The notes under the pieces were generated by a model that saw nothing but the letters and a program-made list of their open reading frames with translations, was not told where the DNA came from and made no database searches. A DNA stretch of 64,000 nucleotides, taken from the NCBI GenBank assembly GCA_031835245.2, contig JAVKOQ020000003.1, positions 186,001-250,000 of the forward strand, read 5' to 3'. Positions 6,764 through 47,211 of this stretch are shown here, piece by piece. The DNA comes from Balamuthia mandrillaris (lineage: Eukaryota). The translations under genes were made by a program, and so were the position numbers. Within the stretch, counting starts at the first letter, position 1. Every line of letters starts with the position of its first letter.

Positions 6764-7023
6764 ATCACGCTCGCACCGGTGGTAGTCTGATGCTTTGGCT
6801 GGCCTATACTGATTTTAATCAAACCACCAATCAAAAACCAAACAGCATGACCACTATAATAGTCGACAAACAGTAAACGATTTCTTTTGGCCTCTGCTGC
6901 TGCTTTCTTCGAAAAGCTTGGACGCGAGAATGCCTCACCCTTTTATACGCTTGTTAGGAAGGCAAGCAAAGTCTTCAAGTACCTTCTTCCACACCAAAAC
7001 TTAGCGACACGCGTTGAACACAG

Positions 7024-8604
7024 ATGGAGCAACAGAGAATGCTGCAGAAGAACCACAGGCCACATGCCGTTATCATCGGCGGTGGTATCGCCGGCTGCGC
7101 ACTAGGCTTGTTCCTCGCCTGCGAGAGCGGCTTTCGTGTGTCCATATTCGAGGCGTACTCTCGCACTCAGGCGGTCAATGGTGGGATCGGCGGTGGCCTG
7201 CAGCTGGCCCCCAATGGCATGCGCGTCCTGAAGCATCTCGGCTTGGCGGAGCGGCTGCGTAGGTTGGGTGTGGAGAGCCCCTGCTTTGAGTTCCGAGGAC
7301 ACGATGGACACCTTATTGTGCGCACGCACGTCGATCCCAAGGGTAGGTACGACCAGCCCTCCGTCCTGATGACACGTGCAACACTACACCAGGTCCTCGT
7401 GGAGGCCGTAGAGCACGAGCAGGAGCAGAACAACAACACCACCATCGAGTTTGACAAGCGCCTCGTCGGCGCCAGCGGCATAGAAGCTGAGGATGAAGCC
7501 TACGATTTGGCAGATGCCAACAGCGGGCCAGTAATGCTGCAGTTTGAGGATGGAAGTCGGGCGTGTGGGGACTTGGTCGTCTGCGCTGATGGAGTGCATT
7601 CTAAGATGCGGAGCCTGCTGCTGGGCGAAGACGACCCTAAGGCATGCTACTTGGGCCTCGTCTCTCTCGGTGGCTTTGCTCACTCCGATATCTTCCTTGA
7701 AAAGCCGGAGAGCGAGCAGGGCGTCATCAACTTCCTCTTCTCGCCCGAAGGCAGTATGATGGGGTACTGCCGTGCTACAGGAGACGACCCTCGCCTTGTC
7801 ATGTGGTGGCGCAACATGCAGGTGGCCAACCATCCAAAGCTCATGCAGCTTCTAGGCCTGAGTTCGGCAGCCGACGAGCGCCTATATCAACCACCCACAA
7901 AGGAGGAGCTGCAGGCAATGGATACTGACGAGCTCAAGCGTTGCATCCTGCACTTGCCTGGTGGAGAGGAGTGGTCGCCTGTGTTGCGCCAGATGGTAGA
8001 GGACACCGATACTATCCTGCGTGGCACCATCAGCGACGTGGTTCATATTCCTCGGTGGGCACAAGGTCGCGCATGTCTGATCGGAGATGCAGCCCACGCC
8101 GTCAGTCCACACTCAGGCCAGGGCGCATCGCTGGCGCTGGAGGACTCTATGTTCCTTGCAAAGATGCTACGACTTGCTTTGCATGAGCATCGGTCGCGCC
8201 ATGAACATGACGACGAAGATCTCCCATTCCCGATAACCCTCCTGCAGCGTGCGTTCAAGGCTTATGAGCATGGCCGCAAGGCAAGAGTGGAGAAGATCGT
8301 AGCAGAAGGGCGGCGCAGAGGTGAGCAAAGAAGAAACACAAAAGAGGAGCCCTCAGGACCTGGAGCTGTGAAGAGATGGCTGATAGAGGGCATGATGTAC
8401 CTCGCCTTCAAGCACCTCGCTCAGCCCCTGTTTGGCCAGGTCTTTGGATATCGAATCGAGTGGGACGACGGCAAGACCCTTCGCCAGATCGAAGCGGAGC
8501 AGCGAGAGCAAGCAAGCGGCGCATGGGCAAAGACTGTGGGCACAGCGGTGATACTTACAGCTGTGCTTGTTCCCGTTGTTGCCCTTCTTCTACACCGACG
8601 GTAA
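7024..8604 (+). CDS. FAD-dependent monooxygenase (class A flavoprotein, salicylate hydroxylase/UbiH-like), intronless
   Basis: GGGIAG, ADGVHS and LIGDAAH...GQG fingerprints. C-terminal hydrophobic tail. Confidence 0.92.
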   Translation: MEQQRMLQKNHRPHAVIIGGGIAGCALGLFLACESGFRVSIFEAYSRTQAVNGGIGGGLQLAPNGMRVLKHLGLAERLRRLGVESPCFEFRGHDGHLIVRTHVDPKGRYDQPSVLMTRATLHQVLVEAVEHEQEQNNNTTIEFDKRLVGASGIEAEDEAYDLADANSGPVMLQFEDGSRACGDLVVCADGVHSKMRSLLLGEDDPKACYLGLVSLGGFAHSDIFLEKPESEQGVINFLFSPEGSMMGYCRATGDDPRLVMWWRNMQVANHPKLMQLLGLSSAADERLYQPPTKEELQAMDTDELKRCILHLPGGEEWSPVLRQMVEDTDTILRGTISDVVHIPRWAQGRACLIGDAAHAVSPHSGQGASLALEDSMFLAKMLRLALHEHRSRHEHDDEDLPFPITLLQRAFKAYEHGRKARVEKIVAEGRRRGEQRRNTKEEPSGPGAVKRWLIEGMMYLAFKHLAQPLFGQVFGYRIEWDDGKTLRQIEAEQREQASGAWAKTVGTAVILTAVLVPVVALLLHRR

Positions 8605-22922: not shown

Positions 22923-24458
22923 ATGTCCCTAGCACCACCATGGAAGACAGACAGCCAAAGAAAGGAAGAGTGGCAGAGGCTGCGCACTGAACTGCAACTG
23001 CCAGACCTGGCAGCTCAATACCTTCCCGTGTCCTCGTTCTTGCGTAAGCATCCCGCTTCGTGTTTGTTTGTGATGGAAGTGTCTTCTCTTTTTTTTACTC
23101 TGCACACACTCATATACATCAAAACAGTGGACAGCTGGCAAGCCGGCTGTGGGGTAGTGTGGGTCAACGACATGTTCACAAAACTGTCCCAGTACACCAG
23201 CATGGACCTGCGCGAGGGAGGCCTCTGCACTCTGTTGCGGCCACAGCAGCACAGCCAGAAGCGAGTGGAAGCAGAGAAGCAGCTCAGAAACGCGCTCTCC
23301 AAGGGGACCGCCTACGAGGCCGATGTGCTGTGCTACAAGAAGGACGGCACCCCCTTTTGGGGTCTGCTCTCCATAGCTCCCGTTCGCAACGAGCTCAAGC
23401 CCAACCGTTACCTCACTGGCGTGTTGGTGGATGTCTCTAAACGTAAGGCGAGGGAGCTGAAGATGATGGAACGGAAGCAGAGCTGCTGCCTTACTCTCCC
23501 TCACAGTGACGTGGGGCCTCGCATGGTCTCCTCTGCCCTCGTGCTTCACTTGTCCTTTGCCAAGGCCTTTGCCTTCCTGACGGACAGCGGCAACCTTACA
23601 GAACAAGCGGGACGTGGTTCCTCCTCGTTTTTCCTCCTACGAAAGATCTTTCAGTTGTTGGATTCCCAGTTGGGGTCGTTTCCATCCTTGCGGAAGGTGG
23701 AGCGTTCCTCTTCATCGGGAGATTACGTCGTGGTGGGAGCCTCCTTCCTGGAACACCAGCGAGCTCAAGCAATCACCCAGAAGTGCGTGCAATCCCGCCA
23801 TCGAGAGAGCACAAGAAGAAGCGGCACGCCACGATCACCCCAGGGCGGACTGAAGAACGGACGAAGGAGCAGTCTTTCCATCATCCAAGAGTCAGAAGAT
23901 GAGTATCATGCTCACAACAGGGTGCTTGAACCCGCTCCAGTGGACCTGATAGAGTCCTATCGTATGCAGAGGCGATACAGTCTGCCTCATCACTCTTCGC
24001 TAGGGATCATACAGGAACACTCCCCTCTGATGGCCACTAGCAACACAGCGCAGCTGAAGTCGTGCCGTTCAGCCGATGACCAACCCAACGAAGCTCAACC
24101 CACTCCAAGAGAAATACGCCAATCCCAAGCCAAGCTCCTTGCTGAAGCCTTCCAATTCATCCAATCCTTTCTTGCAGCTTCCTCTCTTCTCTTCAAAGAA
24201 CACGCCAAGCACGAACCAACAGAGTCCCTTACGGAAAATCTTCTTCCTTCCATGGGTAGCACCATTGGACCCATCGTAATAGGTTCCTTGGACATCACCC
24301 CTCCATTCACCTACGATGTCTGGGGAGACACCTGCGGGGAAGCTGCCGCCTTGGCCAAATCAACGCCTTCAGGCATGCTAACGCTCAGCCGGCTGGCTTT
24401 TGACCTTTGCGCTCTCTTACCTTCTCCTGCACCAACTCACCTGCTTATGAACTGTTAA
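22923..24458 (+). CDS. LOV-like PAS domain + degenerate class III (adenylyl/guanylyl) cyclase-homology domain
   Basis: PAS: VVWVNDMFTKLSQY...CYKKDGTPFWGLLSIAPV...GVLVDVS. Cyclase-like: IFQLLD...KVE..GDYVVVG and GPIVIG...YDVWGDT. Probable in-frame 66-nt intron at 23062-23127. Confidence 0.8.
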   Translation: MSLAPPWKTDSQRKEEWQRLRTELQLPDLAAQYLPVSSFLRKHPASCLFVMEVSSLFFTLHTLIYIKTVDSWQAGCGVVWVNDMFTKLSQYTSMDLREGGLCTLLRPQQHSQKRVEAEKQLRNALSKGTAYEADVLCYKKDGTPFWGLLSIAPVRNELKPNRYLTGVLVDVSKRKARELKMMERKQSCCLTLPHSDVGPRMVSSALVLHLSFAKAFAFLTDSGNLTEQAGRGSSSFFLLRKIFQLLDSQLGSFPSLRKVERSSSSGDYVVVGASFLEHQRAQAITQKCVQSRHRESTRRSGTPRSPQGGLKNGRRSSLSIIQESEDEYHAHNRVLEPAPVDLIESYRMQRRYSLPHHSSLGIIQEHSPLMATSNTAQLKSCRSADDQPNEAQPTPREIRQSQAKLLAEAFQFIQSFLAASSLLFKEHAKHEPTESLTENLLPSMGSTIGPIVIGSLDITPPFTYDVWGDTCGEAAALAKSTPSGMLTLSRLAFDLCALLPSPAPTHLLMNC

Positions 24459-24523: not shown

Positions 24524-26590
24524 TTAAGGAATGCCCATCTGTGCTTCCAGCTTTTGGCTCACATCGCGAACCAGGCTTGGCGTTGAGAGGTGCAGGCAAA
24601 GAGTGCCTCCGTGAACAAGATTAACTGCTTCTCCCAACAGAAAGTCATTGGTGAGGGCCTTTCTTGGCACCTGCTGCCGTTGCAAAGAATCCTGCGAAGC
24701 TTCACCACTCGACTTATTGTTGAGGCGGATATTTTCGGAACTTGAAGTCGGGGACATTTGCGTCGCGCTTAGTTTAAAAGCGTCTGTATGCGTGAGAGAG
24801 AGAGAGAGAAAAGGTTACACGACAGGTTCAGAGCTATGCACACGTGAAAAGTGGGTATGTACCTGATAAAGTTTCGCCAAATGGATCATACTCGACGCTG
24901 ATTTCCAACGGATAACCACGGAATCGTTTGTTTAGCTCGTTTCGCAGATTCTGTAGGGTAAGGTCTTCCTTCGATACAAGAAAGACAAATGGAGAGGAAA
25001 AGTCGAGCTTGACCTTCTCGCTGTTGGACTGTCGTTCCTTTCTAGGGGAGTTGCTGCGCGGAGAGAGAAGGCCTTTCTGTTCTTCAGGTCGCGTTTCAAA
25101 CTCGAAAGTAAAATAACACTTGATAGCAACACAGACGCAGTGGTTGCTGTTCTTCGACATCGTTTGTTCGCAGAATCGGCGAGCCTCCAACGCCCATTCA
25201 TTCATTAAGCTTCGGTCCAGCTTCGGCTCACCGTTGCTTGCGGTCAAGTTGTGTTTTGGAGATAGTGGCGGTGAGCTATCGGAAGAAGTAGAATCATCGC
25301 TCGAGGGAAATTGCAATGGACGATGAGCGTGAGGATCACCAGCATCGGCGCTATTGGTACGAGGCCTCTGCTCTTTTTTGGTATGTCCACGATTGTTGGT
25401 TAGCACGTTTGCTCGGGCTTGCAACCCCTGGTCAAAGATGCTGTCGTTGCTGCTCTTGGAGCGATTCATGGAGAAAGCCTCTTCAGACTCGTTGACGGTA
25501 CGCGGGTATGGTTTGCCTTGTACACGCGCTCTGCGAACAACGGGGCTGCTGCTGCTATCCTCCACGCTCCTCGTCCTGGTCAACGCGTAGCAACTGGAAT
25601 CCTCATCTGATGATGAGGAGTAGCCGGAGCTGCAGCTGCGGACTTTCCTTGTTGCGATTACGTAGTTCCCGCTGCTGTCATCCTTCTCGAGCATGCTCTC
25701 ATACTCGGAGACTGGAATCTTAGCTCTGGACCGTTCGATAGCGTGTTTGATTTGGGACTGCGGAAGAGCGCTCAACCGTTCGTTCATCTTCTCGATGAGG
25801 CCAGCAAGCCGCTCTCTGTCGGCCTCCGCAAAGTTGCCTACAAAGTCCTCCATTCCCAGCTTTACCAAGTCCGCTTTCTTCAAGCCGAGAAACGTCCTTC
25901 CGTCCACATCCTTCTGACAGAACTTCTCGCTATAGACACTGAACCCTGTTTTGTCCAACCACATGGCCACCTCTACTGGAGACCACTCCCGAATACACTT
26001 CAGCTGGTCTATATCGTAGAGCAAGCTCACGTTCTTCTGAATGGCAATGTAATGCGTTACAGCACCTCCTTTTTTGCCATGCTTGTGAACGGGAAGTAAA
26101 AGAAAGCTGTTCCAGAAGGGCAACCCGTCTTTTCTGTAGTTTAACAGTGTGATGGAGAGGTCTCGTCCTTTGGCTAATGCCTTTCGTATCCTACAACAGA
26201 TTAGTGAGATAAAAACAAGACACTTGTGTGAAACATCTTTGCTTGCCAACACTCCCAAAAATAAAGAACAAGAACGTACTTGCGAACGCTAGCTTTGCTT
26301 GTGTACTTTCCTTGCAGGAAGCGGCAGTTCCTCCCAATAATTTCCTCTCGCGGGTAGAGCGTCAGGAACTCAAAGGCATCATTGGCAAAGATAATGGGCT
26401 GGTCTTTGGCTTTGAAGTCGGTTACGACCATCGAGTCGCTCATCGACCGCAGGAAGGGGTACTCCGCCAGCACTCGGCGCTCTAGTTTGAGCGTCTGTTC
26501 CATAGACAAGAGGCAGGTGCGATACTCTCGCAGCTGCCTCTCTCTCAGTTTCTTCGCTTCGTGACTGAGCGTTGAAGTTGATGTTCCCAT
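24524..26590 (-). CDS. LOV (flavin blue-light sensor)-SAM-PB1-like protein, N-myristoylation motif
   Basis: Exons 26590-26280, 26190-24863, 24783-24524. LOV motifs IIFANDAF, GRNCRFLQG, LNYRKDGLPFWN, IAIQ. SAM motif WSPVEVAMWL...DVDGRTFLGL...LVKLGM. Start is MGTSTS. Confidence 0.92.
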
Positions 26591-38560: not shown

Positions 38561-41055
38561 TTATTCGGAGGTTGTAGAACGTTGCAGCTGTTGATAAAAG
38601 TATTCGAAAAGTTGGCTGTACATCTTTTGTGGGCTTCCTCTTAGTACTTGATCACAAAGAGTGAAGAAGGAGAAGAAGAAGAAGAAGAAGAAGAAGAAGA
38701 AGAAGAAGAAGAAGAAGAAGAAGAAGAACAAGAAGAACAAGAAGAACAAGAACAAGAAGAACAAGAACAAGAAGAAGAAGAAGGAGCAGGTACCTGAGCA
38801 AGAATGTCTTGGGCTTGGTTTGCGGAATAACCAGTGGTGGTCACGTAATCACCTTTGCTGGGGTTCAAGTTCGGAGTCCTGCATTGAATGACACAGCGCA
38901 CCTCCTCTTCCGAATACAAAGAACATGGCGTTGGCCCTCCCTCCAACAGAACAGGATAGACGTGGCCTAGTTTAGCAGTCTCGCCCTTATGTTGGTTGTG
39001 AAGACATGGCCCACAGCGTGCAGCCAAGGCTTGGCTTACCCTGCTGCCTTTGCTCGAAAACCGCCAGTTCACCTCGTTCGCCACAAAACTATTGGTTCAG
39101 CATAGGTATGAGAGCATTTCTCCTTTCTTTTCTTGTCTTTTCTGTTCTTTTTGTGCTTGCAAAGAAGGGATAAAGATAGAAAGGAAGCGTACCAGCAAGG
39201 AGTGGAGTGTTGAGTCTTCAACTGAGTTATGTCGGCGTGTTGAACAAGAAAGCGTGGAAGTTTCTCTGAACGCGATGTAATGCTCTTCAATTGTGACGAG
39301 AAGAAGCAGAACGGATCAACCTCTGCTTCCTTGCCGTCATCAAAGTAAAGTTGTTGCAGGCGAGGATGTATGCATAGAATCAAGGTGAAGTCCTCGCCGG
39401 TGTGAGCATCCAGAAACTTTGTCACGGAATGCAACAGCAGGTCGCAAGCCTTTCCAGAGTCGAACCGCAAAAATGGCGCAGTGCAGAAAGGAGGAAAGGC
39501 AAGACAGCGCGCACCTTCCAGTTTGGCAAAGTTGATAGATAAGAGGGGAGGAAGTGGTTGTGCTGAGTTAGTTGATAGTTTTTGTTGTTGATGAGTGGTA
39601 GCTCTTGGCTCGTCCGTTGCTCGTTTCACCTGTTGTGGAGGCATTTCTGCTTCGGAACTTGGTCCTCCTGTTGATTTTATTAGAGGTGGAGGGCGATGAT
39701 GCTGGTGGGAAAGGGGTTTGGAAGGATCTGCTGATACTGATATGGTGGTGTTTATATGAGGAAGGAACTTGGAGGGTTGTTTGTGTTGATCCTTCTTCTC
39801 TTCCTCCTCTTCTTCCGCAGGAGCTTCCAACTTGACAACTTTCTTCTTGGCATCAACAGGGCTAGTAAAAGATTAGTCGGGAAAAACAAAGCAGAGAGAG
39901 AGAGAGAGAGAGAGAGAGCACAAACACAATACGCAGCATTTTCTTTTTGCCGCTTGCTGTAATCGATGTAGACTCTTGTGCTGGCGTTGGACGTTTGGTT
40001 TCGCTGCTGTCTTTGGTGGATTTGGTGTTGGTTTGTGGTTCTGCACCAGCTGTGGCCGTGGTTTTGGCAGTCGTTTTGTTGGTTGAGGAGGTAGTTTTGG
40101 ATGGAATGGGAGGAACAGGATCGGTTATAGCAACGTCTTTCGTGGTAGTCTTGTGGCTTTGTTCTTTGCCTTTGTATGCAATGTTGAGCTCTTTTGCTTT
40201 GGTAGGATCCTTTGTAGTAGTTGTGGAGGAAGAAGAAGCGTTGCCAACAGAAGGCTGTGTTTGCTCTTCCAGGTGAGGATGGCTGAACTGCAGGAAATGG
40301 TCAGGATTGCGCCGAAAGCATTTTTCTCCATACTTGCAAACAGGGAGCCCCTTCTGCCTATTAAGGGCGGCTGACTGCTGTTCTTCTTCTTCTCTATCCT
40401 CGTGGCGAGGCTTCTTAATCCACATGCCTGCGCTAGCAGCACTACTACTGCTGCTGCTAGCTTCAGCAACAGAGGATGGTTCCTCGGCAGGAGCTGCCTT
40501 TCTTTTTTTGGTTGTTGTTGTAGCTTTCGCTTGGTGGTGGTTGTCAGCTGCTCCATATTCGATGTGTAGAGTGTACGTGAACTCGTTGTTAGGGCTCGGG
40601 ATCAGTGCAAACGAGTCTCCGCTTTGCAGGAAGTAAGTCTGTCCGGTGGTCATCTCCATCGGTTCTTGTTGCAGCTTCTCATTGGCGTCCCTCTGCAGGT
40701 AGCTTGGGTTCCTTCCTTCCTGTTGCAAAGCACCCATCAGGCATTCGCGTTTGTCGAGAGGCACAGAAAGAGAAAACGAGAGACCAGGAGAGCGCGAGCA
40801 AGAGAATAGCGTAACGAGAGCGAGAACAGAGCGGCGGGCGGAGACGAAACGTACCTTGACGAAGGACACGCCCGTGTGGGCAACGGTCAAGAGGGCCTGG
40901 TTTCGACTGCAGCGCTTGTCGGTGATGCCCAGGAGGGAGCCTCTCCCCAAAGGAGTAGCGCCGAACGGCAGGATAATCATGTTGCCATCTCTGGTCAGCA
41001 GCATCGCTTGCTTCACAGGGCGACCTTCACCACCATCGCGCCCTTCTCTCTCCAT
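38561..41055 (-). CDS. FHA (APLF/PNKP-type) + PBZ zinc finger + macrodomain protein
   Basis: FHA: LGRGSLLGITDKRCSRNQ...GRNPS. PBZ: CKYGEKCFRRNPDHFLQFSH. Macro-like: LAFPPFCT...DITQL...ANEVNWR...TPNLNP. Confidence 0.85.
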
Positions 41056-41124
41056 TTCTTTGCTTTCTTGCTTGGCTTTTCTTCGAGGAAAAATTTGAAG
41101 AAAAAAGCTTAACACAGCCGCAAG

Positions 41125-42199
41125 ATGGAGGAACCTTTGCCGGAGGAAGGGGAGGAGGAGGAGGAAGAAGAGGTTGGACACCTTCTGATTGTACGTTTTC
41201 TCTAGCTCTCTCTCTCTCTCTCTCTCCAGTTTGTGCTTGGTTTGTGGTTTTGTGTGGTGACACCAGGTTAAATAATAACAGGATGAGGAAGAGCAGGAAC
41301 CGCCGCCCCCTACTTCTTCTTTAAAGAGCGGTGCTGGGGGCAATGCCTCCCGCCGAAAGAGAAAGACACCTCTTTCCAGAACAATGCCTGATGGCCTTGT
41401 TGAAGACAGCAGCAGCCGCTCCCCCAAAAAACTTAGGTACCACCAACTAAACCCTCCCGGCCGATGTTTGCTGGCCACTAACACTCGTGCCTGTGATTTG
41501 TTTCGTTTGTTTTCAAAATAGACTGGAGGACGGCACGTTGAGGGTGAAGGGGCGGTGCATGGCCCCCACGGAAGCCCTTGCCCAGCCCTCCTTGTACTCG
41601 TTGGCACGGCTGTGGCTTGATAACATGACCGCTTCTATCGCCACCCAAGACCAAGAGGTCTTCCTCCTTTCCCCTCTTCCCTCACCACCCTCCTCCTTCT
41701 TCTTCTTCTTCTTCTTCTTCTTGTTCTTCTTCTTCTTCTTCTTCTTCTTGTTCTTCTTCTTCTTCTTCTTCTTCTTCTTCTTCTTCTTCTTCTTCTTCTT
41801 CTTCTTCTTCTTCTTCTTCTTTCTTCTTCTTCTTCTTCTTCTTCTTCTTCTTCTTCTTCTTCTTCTTCTTCTTCTTCTTCTTCTTCTTCTTCTTCTTCTT
41901 CTTCTTCTTCTTCTTCTCCTTCTGCTGCTGCTCCTCCTCTTCTCTTGCTGCACTTTGTTGGCTTGACTGACGGTTGTTTCTTTTGTCCTTTTCTTGCAAA
42001 AGGGGAGCAGCAACAGCGACTCAGCGAAAGCTATGCGACGGATAAAGCTGCCTAGGCCTGCTCCACATACCAAATACTCACTGGCGCGTGGCCCTCCCCC
42101 ACGTCCTCCTCACACCTCTCAGGATTTTGATGTACACTTATACTACTACTACCTTATGTCGCTAGCCCTGTTCTCATCATCCTCTCGCTTCTATCCTCT

Positions 42200-43871: not shown

Positions 43872-45400
43872 ATGGCGTCCAAGTACGTTTGTCCTCAATT
43901 TTTTTTTCATTTCTTGTGAGAGGTTTTTTTTGTTTGGTGCGTAAAACCGGTTACAAAGGCTTACTCTTGCTACTACTATTGTAACCACTTGCTTTCAGTG
44001 GCGACCAACGAAAAAACGGCAAGGCTGGCAGAAGGACCACCGGAAGCCTTGAAATTCTGCACAGACAAAACGTTATTCTCACAAAGCTGAAGCCAAAGCT
44101 AGCTGAGCTGCAGGAACAGGTTCAGGTGTGCTCCAAGCTGTGCTCCGATGAAGCGCTGGTGACGGCCACGTTCCTGTCTTCTCTCACAGACATCAGCAGC
44201 CTTGTACATGACCTACAAAATGAGCGCAGAGAGGAGGCACGTTTTTACAAAGCTTTGATGGTTTGTCTTTCTTTTTTTAAAAAAGTTTTGAAACGTATAC
44301 GTGACTTTTTTTTCTGCCAGGTTAAACAAAAACAAGAGGAAGAAAGCACAAAAGGAGGAGGTAATGGAGGTCATCTAGTGCAGAACATAAAGGACTGCGG
44401 TCGGCTGAGCTTGTTGAATTCAGCTCTGTTGGGACGCATATTCTCATTCCTTCCATCGGAGAGGGATCGACGGGCCATCCTTCTTCTCAACCGCCACTTC
44501 TATAGCAGCTGGAAGAACACTTTATTGCATAATGCTCCTCCTCCAGGGGCTGCTACTGCTATCAACGCCACTGGCAGCAGTGCTGCTACAACAACGCAGC
44601 TTCAGCTACCGTCCTCAGCACAAAAATTGGCTGCGGCAGGAGGAAGCAACAATTCCTCCCCGCGAAGTGCAAGACTAAGCGTGCCTCCTTCCATGATCGA
44701 ATGGATGGAAGAGCAAGGTCTGCCCGCGGAATACGCTACCTTGTTGTGGGGAGCTGGGTTTAAAGGACTGGAGGCCTTGCGCCTCGCCACTGCTGAGGAG
44801 CTTGAGAGGGCTGGCATCAAGAAAACAGGTCATCGCCGTCGTTTACTTTACGCCCTGAAGGAAACCAAACCTACTGCTGCCTCTGCCAAAAAGACCTCAT
44901 CAAAAGAAGAAAACGGAGGTCGAAGCTTTCCGTTTTTGCAATCAAAGAGCGCCTCTCTGGCCCAGTTGCCCTCGACAGGCAGCAGATCCCCACCGCCCCG
45001 CAAACCGCTTACCAGGAAGGAGAAGAAGAAGCAAAAGAAGGAAGAGAAGAAGAAGGAGAAAAACGAAAAGAAGGGCAAAGGACCTGCCAATGTTCCTCAC
45101 GTATTTGTTGATTTTAGCCGCAAGCAGTTGACGGAGGTTCCACCAGAGGTATGGAGCCGTACGGATGCCACCATTCTTAACCTCTTTCAGAACAAGTTGG
45201 ATTCTCTTCCAGGTCCCGAATTAGGTACTGCTGTGAACTAAAATACTTTTTGTTCTTGGTAGTGAGCTAACAATGCTCATCTCTCCCCAGCCAAAATGAA
45301 GTACATCACAATGCTTGGCTTGAACGAGAACAACTTGAAGGAGTTGCCTGCCGAAATCGGCCATCTTCAAACATTGCAGATTCTAGATTTGAGGTCTCTT

Positions 45401-45448
<48 letters not shown>

Positions 45449-47211
45449 TTCTCTCTCGTTTCTTCCCAACAACTAACTTTGTAATATCACATGTTCTCAG
45501 ATCCAACAAACTTGTGTGCATCCCTCCGGAAATACAATATTTGACTAACTTACAACGCCTTTTCCTGAGGTTTAACAAGCTAACCGAGCTTCCTGAAGAA
45601 ATAGGATATTTAGCTTCGTTGGAGGTAAGTTTGTTTCAGCTACCTCTTCTTATCTTTTCTTCTTCACCTTCTCTTTTCTTCACTGCTTCATTTCCTTCGG
45701 AATTGTATTGCACTCCTCAAGAATAAAAATTTTCTAATGTATCTTTCTTCGTTGCAGATTCTTTCTGTAAGGAATAATCAGCTGACCTCTTTGCCAGCTT
45801 CTATTCAAGGCTTGACTTCTCTCAAGATATTGGACGTGTCAAGTAACAAGGTCAAGAAATTAGGCAACATAAGTCAGTTGGTGCATTTGAAGGAGTTGGA
45901 CTTGAAACAAAATTCCCTTTCAGCATTACCAAAAGGTCTAAACACTTTGACAGAGCTTTCTCGCCTCAATCTGTCGCACAATAAGGTATATCTGTCTTTC
46001 TTTAGCTTGTTCCTCTGCTGTTGTTTCTCAAAGAGCTACCTTCATCTCACATCCGCCCTGCTATTGCCAGTTCACAGAGTTTCCGAAATCAGTTGTGGAT
46101 GTGACATGTCTTGAAGAGTTAGATATAGAAGGAAACCAGATATCAACGTTGCCCGAGGAGATTGGCCAATTAACCTGTTTACAGAAGCTCTACCTTAACC
46201 GAAATCGGATAGCGTCCCTTCCCAGTTCTCTTGGGGAGCTTCATGCTCTGCGGGAACTTCAGCTGAAGGGAAATCAGCTGCAGGAACTTCCTGAAATGAA
46301 CGGATTGATGCAGCTTCGTGAGTTGGACATCAGCACTAACTTCTTCGCCCTATTTCCGATGTCGGTGTTGCAGGCCAGCAATTTGTTGACTTTGAATCTC
46401 AGCGATAACACGATCAAGGAACTACCAAAACAGCTTGCTGCCAAACTTCCACAATTGAAGCACCTTAACGCTGAAGGAAACCAGGTACTGATATTTTTGC
46501 TTGTGCATCGTTCTCTTTTCATTACTTTCTAATCTCTCATCGCCACTTCTATTCCTTTCAAGATTGAGCGCTTGCATCGTAAGATAGGAGATATGAAGAA
46601 CCTAAGGCAACTGCGTTTGGGCTATAATGAGTTGGAGAGTCTTCCGGAAGAGTTTGGCGGTATGGCAAGCCTCAAGGAACTGGATCTGGAACACAATGCT
46701 TTATGCTCTCTTCCCCATTCCATAGGAGCGTTATCCTCCCTCTCTCTGTTGGTCCTCAACGACAACGAGCTGGATGGTGCGTGTCTTGGTCCCATTTCTT
46801 CGTCTTCTACCACTGTCTCCTCCTCTGCTAAGTTCGGTTGCCTTGTCGTGTGCTCACCGCTTTTTCTTATTTTCTGAAGATCTCCCGAATGAGTTGGTGG
46901 AGTTAGATAACCTGGGCGAATTGAAGATAGACGGTAATCCCATGAAAGATATTCCAGGTACTTGATTCTTTTTGTTGCTGCAATTATATCAGTGCCCTAA
47001 TAATGACCCACTCATCAGATGCTCAACACGGTGGTAACGCTGTTTTCCACTTTTTGATGAAACGCGCGAGAAAAGGTTCGTTCTCCTTCGCCGCTCCCTT
47101 TTATCGGTCGTCCTCTTCAATAGCCTGCCGAACTTTTGCTCACCTTCGTCCTCCTTCCAATAAGCAGAAGCGGCTGCTGCCAACAACAAAAAAGGTGCAA
47201 GACGCAAGTGA
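43872..47211 (+). CDS. SAM + leucine-rich repeat protein (with F-box-like segment)
   Basis: LLGRIFSFL (F-box-like); SAM motif EWMEEQGL..EYA...ELERAGIKKTGHRRRLL; many LxxLxLxxNxLxxLP repeats across exons. 3' end approximate. Confidence 0.85.

What the first reader, a model, noticed from the sequence alone, without database searches (positions are those of the whole stretch)
24524..26590. Intact LOV photoreceptor with myristoyl-LOV-SAM-PB1-like architecture in an amoeba-like genome
Seen: after splicing, a complete LOV domain with the adduct-forming Cys (GRNCRFLQG, 26309-26335), both flavin-binding Asn (LNYRKDG, FWN) and the signalling Gln (IAIQ). A SAM domain follows about 12 residues later, then a Ser-rich linker and a C-terminal region resembling PB1 (AIKCYF...LTLQNLRNELNKRF). 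The N-terminus MGTSTS fits the MGxxxS myristoylation consensus. Known: LOV domains sense blue light through an FMN-Cys adduct; SAM and PB1 domains polymerise or scaffold. I do not recognise this architecture, which has no enzymatic output. Inference: a membrane-tethered, light-switched oligomerising scaffold, of interest for amoeba photobiology and optogenetics.
Basis: partly seen in the sequence, partly recalled or inferred. Interest (0 to 1): 0.88.

Follow-up and report, generated by a model that had tools for sequence, protein, structure and literature searches.

The report
Membrane-anchored amoebal blue-light receptor family
This gene encodes a complete blue-light-sensing (LOV) domain joined to two protein-binding domains and a likely membrane anchor, and it belongs to a barely studied family found across amoebae in which light is predicted to free a binding domain that would switch Ras signalling.

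Summary
The minus-strand gene (24524-26590, two predicted introns, 632 aa) encodes MGTSTS, a LOV domain with all six photochemical residues checked, a SAM domain, a 211-aa linker and a PB1 domain. The PB1 is split by two insertions; its three pieces score 59.6 bits in order, matched by 0 of 600 shuffles.

It is not a one-off. About 75 relatives carry the same LOV-SAM core; 8 of the 9 with a species name are amoebozoans. Of 43 with an N-terminal LOV, 33 start MG, against 0 of 67 non-members. Thirteen are fused to RasGAP or RasGEF.

Novelty is reduced by Physarum LovA (RasGAP-PB1-LOV-SAM-PB1), described in 2015 but untested in the papers I saw. AlphaFold models of two relatives fold PB1 back onto LOV-SAM, with a pre-PB1 segment where the Jα helix sits in phototropin.

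Best reading: a myristoylated, light-gated adaptor signalling in trans, likely to Ras regulators. Self-polymerisation is less likely, because the acidic PB1 face and the canonical SAM end-helix motif are degenerate. RNA reads were too few to show the splices.

The parts
24524..26590 (-). whole gene, 3 predicted exons, 632 aa myristoyl-LOV-SAM-PB1 protein
26280..26590 (-). exon 1 (N-terminus, A'alpha cap, first half of LOV)
26191..26279 (-). predicted intron 1, 89 nt, GTACGT...CTAAT...TAG, splits the LOV domain
   Evidence: colinearity with solved LOV; no RNA joint listed
24863..26190 (-). exon 2 (second half of LOV, SAM, linker, first two PB1 pieces)
24784..24862 (-). predicted intron 2, 79 nt; if retained the protein stops at 555 aa without the last PB1 piece; other donor/acceptor pairs are possible
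24524..24783 (-). exon 3 (PB1 insert 2, last PB1 helix and strand, 18-aa tail, stop)
26573..26590 (-). N-myristoylation consensus MGTSTS (aa 1-6)
   Evidence: family conservation
26441..26491 (-). conserved N-cap / A'alpha helix ending in EYPFL (aa 34-50)
   Evidence: Y44 in 70 of 74 and P45 in 71 of 74 relatives; helix in models
26031..26440 (-). LOV domain (aa 51-157): C89 at 26326-26324, N121 at 26141-26139, N131 at 26111-26109, Q155 at 26039-26037
25773..25988 (-). SAM domain (aa 172-243) with a 6-aa insert (aa 219-224) before helix 5
25218..25676 (-). Ser-rich linker (aa 276-428, 21% Ser); the core-to-PB1 gap is 211 aa against 1-87 in 44 relatives
25152..25217 (-). segment before PB1 (aa 429-450) holding the linker's only Trp (W436); positional candidate for the family's LOV-docking latch, but it does not score against the motif
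   Evidence: inconclusive
25107..25133 (-). PB1 piece 1, strand beta1 with the conserved Lys461 (aa 457-465)
24864..24995 (-). PB1 piece 2, beta2-alpha1-beta3 and degenerate OPCA loop (aa 503-546), after a 37-aa insert
24581..24655 (-). PB1 piece 3, alpha2-beta5 (aa 590-614), after a 43-aa insert

Best explanation
This gene encodes a LOV-SAM-PB1 protein that is likely a myristoylated, membrane-bound blue-light receptor, predicted to work as a light-gated adaptor: in the dark PB1 would be folded back onto the LOV-SAM unit, and blue light would loosen it so that it can bind a partner protein, most likely a Ras-pathway regulator.

Steps. (1) Shown in sequence: a complete LOV with C89, R90, Q93, N121, N131 and Q155, tied to SAM by a near-fixed linker. 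(2) Inferred from known LOV chemistry: FMN-C89 adduct, Q155 flip, release of whatever packs on the beta-sheet. (3) Shown as family conservation, inferred as function: Gly2 myristoylation puts the switch on a membrane, where Ras GTPases sit. (4) Predicted on two relatives only: PB1 docks on LOV-SAM, and a segment just before PB1 lies where Jα lies in phototropin LOV2. (5) Inferred: the exposed basic PB1 face (K461) binds an acidic (OPCA) PB1 in trans. Relatives that fuse RasGAP or RasGEF to the same core suggest the partner pathway.
For: LOV residues: all six present; also in 67 of 75 relatives. Both halves match solved LOV domains (E 7.5e-10 and 1.2e-14).

Linker: the Gln-to-SAM-Trp spacing is 14-16 residues in 56 of the 58 cores the pattern could measure.

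MG start: 33 of 43 N-terminal-LOV relatives, 26 of those 33 with S/T at position 6; 0 of 67 non-members; 0 of 17 relatives whose LOV is internal. The query began at L120, so it held no N-terminus. The larger set gives 45 of 58, against 5 of 86 phototropin-like controls.

PB1: follows SAM in 44 of 75 relatives. The beta1 Lys is K in 33 of 34 domains; an OPCA-like motif is in 10 of 34.

Models: P0021 (LOV-SAM-PB1 only) pLDDT 81.9, pTM 0.77; P0004 pTM 0.73. My estimated ceilings for an unplaced PB1 are 0.60-0.65 and 0.47-0.54. In 16 of 50 rows the LOV alignment runs on to model residues 279-296, matched to Jα- or HTH-bearing chains (4hhd, 7tal, 3p7n, 6i21). The same model matches PB1 2o2v_B (Z 11.4, rmsd 1.8, 76 aligned) and SAM 3bq7 (Z 11.8, rmsd 1.1, 68 aligned). 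A Trp lies within 45 aa before PB1 in 28 of 38 members, usually in a L..P..L.[FY]W motif.

Ras link: 9 RasGAP and 3 RasGEF fusions among the 72 hits scanned, one more RasGAP, and LovA itself.
Against: The window's own spliced protein was not folded; both models are of relatives, 45% and 50% identical over the core. Docking is read from pTM and alignment ranges, not from coordinates or PAE.

In the P0004 model only 2 of 50 rows reach residues 281-288, and those residues are under pLDDT 50.

The window protein does not match the latch motif: best scores 0.8 and 0.1 bits, and the W436 register is negative. Its linker is 211 aa against 1-87 in relatives, and its PB1 has two inserts, so it may have drifted from the family mechanism. 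10 of 38 members have no Trp before PB1.

No partner protein was identified, since no genome was held. RNA depth was very low and no splice joint was listed.
Confidence: 0.5

Rival explanations
1. One reading: light triggers head-to-tail self-assembly through SAM and/or PB1, clustering the protein on the membrane.
For: The best solved-structure matches of the SAM are SARM1 (E 1.3e-5) and Shank2 (E 8e-5) SAMs; a relative's SAM matches DGK-delta1. That these self-associate is recalled. Membrane tethering would favour assembly.
Against: PB1 homopolymers need both a basic and an acidic face (recalled). Here the acidic loop reads YDPFGE and is cut by a 43-aa insert; 10 of 34 family PB1s have an OPCA-like motif. 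SAM surface positions vary across 75 relatives while core positions are fixed. The G-H-R-type end-helix motif is in 1 of 75 and absent here.
Confidence: 0.2
2. Light changes a LOV-LOV dimer through the A'alpha cap, as recalled for aureochrome and VVD, and so changes the spacing or avidity of SAM and PB1 without an intramolecular latch.
For: The N-cap helix with Y44-P45 is nearly invariant (70 and 71 of 74). Aureochrome, VVD and DsLOV caps align with the models from residues 10-25 onward. The window protein lacks a clear latch motif.
Against: Single-chain models already place PB1 against the core, and the pre-PB1 segment occupies the Jα-like site in the P0021 model.
Confidence: 0.15
3. A drifting or decoy paralogue: it still senses light, or flavin redox state, but its interrupted PB1 no longer signals, or it only competes with effector-bearing paralogues.
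For: Longest linker in the set, two PB1 inserts, a SAM insert, no latch motif match, very few RNA reads. Intron 2 retention would give a 555-aa form.
Against: All three PB1 pieces keep their conserved residues, in order and across an intron. Relatives P0021 and P0017 also carry inserts in the same PB1 loop. Effector-less LOV-SAM-PB1 forms recur: P0025, P0065, P0071, P0180 and P0021.
Confidence: 0.15

Closest known systems
Physarum polycephalum LovA (PMC4758236; passages and section 22 read, supplement not readable)
   Same: Same LOV-SAM-PB1 order with the NCRFLQ cysteine; proposed there as an unconventional blue-light receptor. P0080 in my hits has the full RasGAP-PB1-LOV-SAM-PB1 layout.
   Different: The window protein lacks the N-terminal RasGAP and PB1 and starts with a myristoylation motif; its PB1 is split. 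The passages I read report no family, no myristoylation and no experiment. I did not have the LovA sequence, so orthology is untested.
Database members: Acanthamoeba castellanii P0176 ('SAM domain containing protein') and Balamuthia mandrillaris P0021 ('Phototropin')
   Same: Same A'alpha-LOV-SAM core and a PB1-like region. P0021 also ends at PB1 and is 45% identical over the core.
   Different: Automatic names only. P0176 adds a C-terminal PAS. P0021 as annotated does not start with MG.
Phototropin LOV2-Jα (plants, algae)
   Same: Same photochemical residues. In a relative's model a helix-like segment occupies the Jα site.
   Different: One LOV and no kinase. The predicted latch lies about 125 residues downstream, beyond SAM, rather than directly after the LOV core.
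EL222 (LOV-HTH) and fungal RGS-LOV BcLOV4 (mechanisms recalled; EL222 3p7n aligned)
   Same: Works like EL222 in the predicted dark-state fold-back of the output onto the LOV sheet. Like BcLOV4 it is a single-chain LOV protein tied to membranes and G-protein signalling.
   Different: The output is a PB1/SAM binding surface. The membrane anchor is a predicted permanent lipid, not light-induced lipid binding.

Membership tests
LOV photoreceptor (flavin-cysteinyl adduct type) | GxNCRFLQ motif with the reactive Cys | tested here: met
   GRNCRFLQG, aa 86-94
LOV photoreceptor (flavin-cysteinyl adduct type) | Flavin-binding Asn, Asn and signalling Gln | tested here: met
   N121, N131, Q155; their roles are from established LOV knowledge
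LOV photoreceptor (flavin-cysteinyl adduct type) | Continuous PAS fold, which needs intron 1 spliced | tested here: inconclusive
   Colinear with solved LOV and canonical sites, but no RNA joint listed
LOV photoreceptor (flavin-cysteinyl adduct type) | Flavin binding and reversible photocycle | not testable with these tools
   needs purified protein
SAM domain | Profile match above the curated cut-off | tested here: met
   SAM_2 30.8 bits vs 20.5; SAM_1 29 vs 23
Polymer-forming SAM | Complementary end-helix and mid-loop surfaces | tested here: inconclusive
   Recalled G-H-R-type motif absent here and in 74 of 75 relatives; surfaces variable. Sequence alone cannot exclude polymers.
PB1 domain | Beta-grasp elements in PB1 order | tested here: met
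   Three colinear pieces, 0 of 600 shuffles reach the score; a relative's model matches 2o2v_B at Z 11.4
PB1 domain | Direct Pfam PB1 match | tested here: not met
   No hit at E <= 1 on the exon-2 or exon-3 pieces; the domain is split by 37- and 43-aa inserts and an intron
PB1 domain | Basic Lys on strand beta1 (type II face) | tested here: met
   K461; K in 33 of 34 family domains
PB1 domain, type I/II (self-polymerising) | Acidic OPCA motif | tested here: not met
   YDPFGE followed by a 43-aa insert; the OPCA consensus is recalled
N-myristoylated protein | M-G-x-x-x-S/T at the true N-terminus | tested here: met
   First Met of the open frame; conserved in 33 of 43 relatives
N-myristoylated protein | Lipid attachment and membrane localisation | not testable with these tools
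   needs labelling and a G2A control
LovA type (Physarum) | LOV-SAM-PB1 core | tested here: met
LovA type (Physarum) | N-terminal RasGAP and PB1 | tested here: not met
   Only 33 residues precede the A'alpha cap
LovA type (Physarum) | Orthology to the LovA sequence | not tested
   LovA sequence not in hand; supplement unreadable
Phototropin | Two LOV domains plus a Ser/Thr kinase | tested here: not met
   One LOV, no kinase

The most novel reading that the evidence does not exclude
Amoebozoa share an ancient, undescribed family of myristoylated blue-light receptors built on a closed LOV-SAM-PB1 module with a long-range Jα-like latch. Light opens it to switch Ras signalling at the membrane, in cis in the RasGAP and RasGEF fusions and in trans through PB1 in effector-less members such as this one. 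This would name the missing blue-light input of amoebozoan behaviour and supply natural single-chain light-switched Ras regulators.
Probability: 0.35. Interest if true: 0.87.

Novelty: new variant of a known kind. Interest (0 to 1): 0.63.

Why it matters
[quoted passage not shown] It offers one candidate, LovA.

This work shows that LovA's core is a broad family. Named members come from Filamoeba, Protostelium, Soliformovum, Arcella, Pyxidicula, Clydonella, Acanthamoeba and Balamuthia. The family has a conserved lipid-anchor motif and repeated fusion to Ras regulators. That makes blue-light sensing in amoebae directly testable with named residues (C89, Q155, G2, K461). The RasGAP and RasGEF fusions are candidate single-component optogenetic tools.

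The window gene itself is a derived, effector-less member and probably not the best one to start with.

Tried and rejected
No whole genome was held, so paralogues and PB1 partners in this organism could not be sought.

RNA: no RNA holder was listed for the stretch. Three RNA runs of the same species label and one contig set were laid once; reads were mostly 95-99% alike, directions were mixed and no joint was listed. One X5 read pair near intron 1 fits a spliced and an unspliced placement equally well. A wider lay gave no result.

Complex prediction of P0021 LOV-SAM (15-250) with its pre-PB1/PB1 part (282-395) plus FMN: no answer, score 0.00 in both runs, alignment not used, controls not folded. 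It is no evidence either way.

Word-index searches with exon 2 found only 1 relative at near length and 2 unrelated LOV proteins at longer length; the full HMMER scan was needed. The protein Atlas gave no result for the window PB1 region or for P0004. Pfam missed the window's PB1. Foldseek and the second VIA look on P0004 were filled by LOV hits and say little on SAM or PB1.

Tree: only the quick method finished, and 8 phototropins leaked through my filter; they were removed for the counts. The window protein falls with P0108 and P0152 (SH-aLRT 95), inside an open group with Balamuthia P0021 (80). That is too weak to name an orthologue.

Latch motif scan on the window protein: inconclusive.

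Considered and rejected: that the PB1 inserts are hidden introns. Their sequence is not pyrimidine-rich and X5 reads cover the bins of insert 1. A shorter insert 2 through the acceptor at 24700 remains possible.

Papers: Glantz et al. 2016 (LOV architecture catalogue) was not held; I saw nothing of it and it may list LOV-SAM. Searches for LOV-SAM, LOV-PB1, SAM-PB1, LOV-RasGAP, LOV-RasGEF and 'myristoylated LOV' gave 0 papers. Searches gave 0. Searches listed nothing that names this family in title or abstract. LovA with Physarum gave 3 listings of 2 works. In one search, 1 of the 30 listed (of 124) papers contains 'phototropin'. Earlier scan findings: none.

Full report
Gene and observation. 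The window is eukaryotic and intron-bearing; neighbouring frames give SH3, eIF-5/eIF-2B, PCI, WD40, RCC1, PH and FHA hits. On the minus strand an ATG at 26590 opens a frame that reads MGTSTS and reaches GRNCRFLQG at 26335-26309. The second half of the LOV, a SAM and a long Ser-rich tract lie in another frame. Removing 26279-26191 and 24862-24784 gives 632 aa ending at the TAA at 24526-24524. Of 24 frame-keeping GT-AG pairs for intron 1, 3 give a 33-residue motif spacing, and only the chosen one uses the acceptor beside the CTAAT branch site. It makes both halves colinear with solved LOV 9vf7. RNA reads touch all three exons at very low depth, but no joint reached the listing threshold, so splicing is inferred.

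Domains. LOV spans aa 51-157 with C89, R90, Q93, N121, N131 and Q155. SAM passes both Pfam cut-offs 12 residues after the PAS hit. Pfam does not see PB1 in the window's exon pieces. A profile built from 34 PB1 domains of relatives matches aa 458-464, 503-536 and 591-613 in order. The colinear score of 59.6 bits was reached by 0 of 300 global and 0 of 300 local shuffles, and the third piece is the best of 65,204 window positions. This supports both the PB1 call and the coding status of exon 3. The domain carries inserts of 37 and 43 aa.

Family. phmmer with aa 120-546 against 1.84 billion representatives gave 151 hits at E <= 0.001, of which 150 were listed. A LOV-SAM profile counted 86 of 153 sequences (the window protein included) as spanning both domains and 61 as full-length cores. 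After a second search, and after dropping cluster-mates and 8 phototropins that passed my filter, 75 relatives remained. I hand-picked 72 of the 150 hits for Pfam, choosing longer ones whose match seemed to span both domains: 57 have both PAS_9 and SAM, 15 PB1, 9 RasGAP, 3 RasGEF, 1 a kinase, 1 a weak RapGAP and 4 weak beta-propeller hits. The family profile finds PB1 after SAM in 44 of 75. A common form adds a second PAS after PB1; 5 of 44 end within 45 aa of PB1, as the window protein does.

Taxa. Twenty-one clusters were looked up and 7 gave a species: Filamoeba, Protostelium, Soliformovum, Arcella, Pyxidicula, Clydonella and Syssomonas (a Cys-less member). One search added Acanthamoeba and Balamuthia. 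Eight of these 9 are amoebozoans and, by my recalled taxonomy, they span its three main lineages. Most relatives are unnamed. That the window comes from an amoebozoan is therefore an inference.

Membrane anchor. The first query contained no N-terminus, yet 33 of 43 relatives with an N-terminal LOV begin MG, 26 of those with S/T at position 6. The controls gave 0 of 67 non-members and 0 of 17 members with an internal LOV. Phototropin-like controls gave 5 of 86 MG and 1 of 86 with the full motif. Myristoylation is thus a family trait by sequence; attachment itself is untested.

Mechanism. The LOV-to-SAM spacing is nearly fixed (14-16 residues in 56 of 58 measured), which suggests a rigid unit. 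AlphaFold2 on two relatives gave pTM 0.73 (P0004) and 0.77 (P0021), above my estimated ceilings of 0.47-0.54 and 0.60-0.65 for a PB1 with no fixed place. So the models dock PB1 on the core. In the P0021 model, structural alignments to LOV proteins extend to residues 279-296 in 16 of 50 rows, onto chains that carry Jα or EL222's HTH. Those residues begin a motif, roughly L..P..L.[FY]W, whose Trp is found before PB1 in 28 of 38 members. I read this as a long-range latch on the LOV sheet that light would release.

Against this reading: the P0004 model shows the extension in only 2 of 50 rows and at low confidence. The window protein does not score on the motif, its linker is far longer than any relative's, and it was not folded itself.

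Output. The PB1 Lys is nearly invariant (33 of 34) while the acidic motif is a minority trait (10 of 34) and is broken here. That favours binding to another protein's acidic PB1 over self-polymers. The SAM's surface is variable and lacks the recalled end-helix motif. The repeated Ras-regulator fusions point to the likely pathway; for this effector-less member that link is inference.

Prior art. The Physarum genome paper (PMC4758236; passages, section 22 and the LOV paragraph read; supplement not readable) describes LovA as RasGAP-PB1-PAS_9-SAM-PB1 with the NCRFLQ cysteine and proposes it as an unconventional blue-light receptor. P0080 has that layout. PMC12308756 (passages) mentions LovA only in an expression survey of P. 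roseum, which responded little to light. Passages of PMC5804921, PMC8017926, PMC6324907 and PMC10468136 showed nothing on this architecture. Ten searches turned up no description of the family, its myristoylation or any experiment. Glantz et al. 2016 could not be read and may list LOV-SAM; most subscription papers are outside the library.

Verdict. A real, intact member of an under-described amoebozoan LOV-SAM-PB1 family whose core was noted once, in LovA. It works like a fold-back LOV switch and is not a phototropin. New here are the family's breadth, the conserved lipid-anchor motif, the Ras-regulator fusions and the predicted latch. New variant of a known kind; interest 0.63.

Noticed in passing
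window 22923-24458 (+): Convergent neighbour, its stop 65 bases from this gene's stop. It encodes a LOV-like PAS (PAS_9 E 2.5e-11) that keeps a Cys at the motif position (GGLCTLLRP) but has lost the Arg, Gln and Asn flavin contacts. A remnant of a class III cyclase follows (YDVWGDT; E 0.015 to adenylate cyclases). Possibly a pseudo-receptor; any link to the LOV-SAM-PB1 gene is untested.
   Followed up: partly
P0019 (Syssomonas multiformis transcriptome): A LOV-SAM-PB1 protein without the reactive Cys, outside Amoebozoa. It could mean an older origin of the module, transfer or contamination; it is a long branch.
   Followed up: no
P0027, P0030, P0031 (RasGEF); P0032, P0036, P0041, P0055, P0062, P0066, P0081, P0089, P0181 (C-terminal RasGAP); P0080 (N-terminal RasGAP); P0072 (kinase): Natural single-chain LOV-SAM fusions to Ras regulators or a kinase, several starting MG. 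These are better starting points for optogenetics than the window gene.
   Followed up: partly
P0035, P0051, P0063, P0067: A clade of 1,800-2,200-aa proteins with a Cys-less LOV-SAM core; three have two PAS_9 matches, and P0051 shows the LOV-SAM-PB1-like unit twice. A light-blind, duplicated version.
   Followed up: no
P0039, P0093, P0125 and neighbours: A group with an internal LOV-SAM preceded by weak beta-propeller hits and no MG start; P0039 is from Pyxidicula.
   Followed up: no
window 43985-46532 (+): A second SAM-containing gene (SAM_1 E 2.8e-9) with the canonical GHRRR end-helix motif, followed by leucine-rich-repeat-like exons. A possible SAM partner only by co-occurrence.
   Followed up: no
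window 7018-8604 (+): A 528-aa uninterrupted frame for an FAD-dependent monooxygenase (FAD_binding_3 E 2e-22) in a higher-GC stretch (0.59); unusual among intron-rich neighbours.
   Followed up: no
window 39865-41634 (-): FHA_2 plus PBZ zinc finger, an APLF-like DNA-repair layout (name recalled).
   Followed up: no
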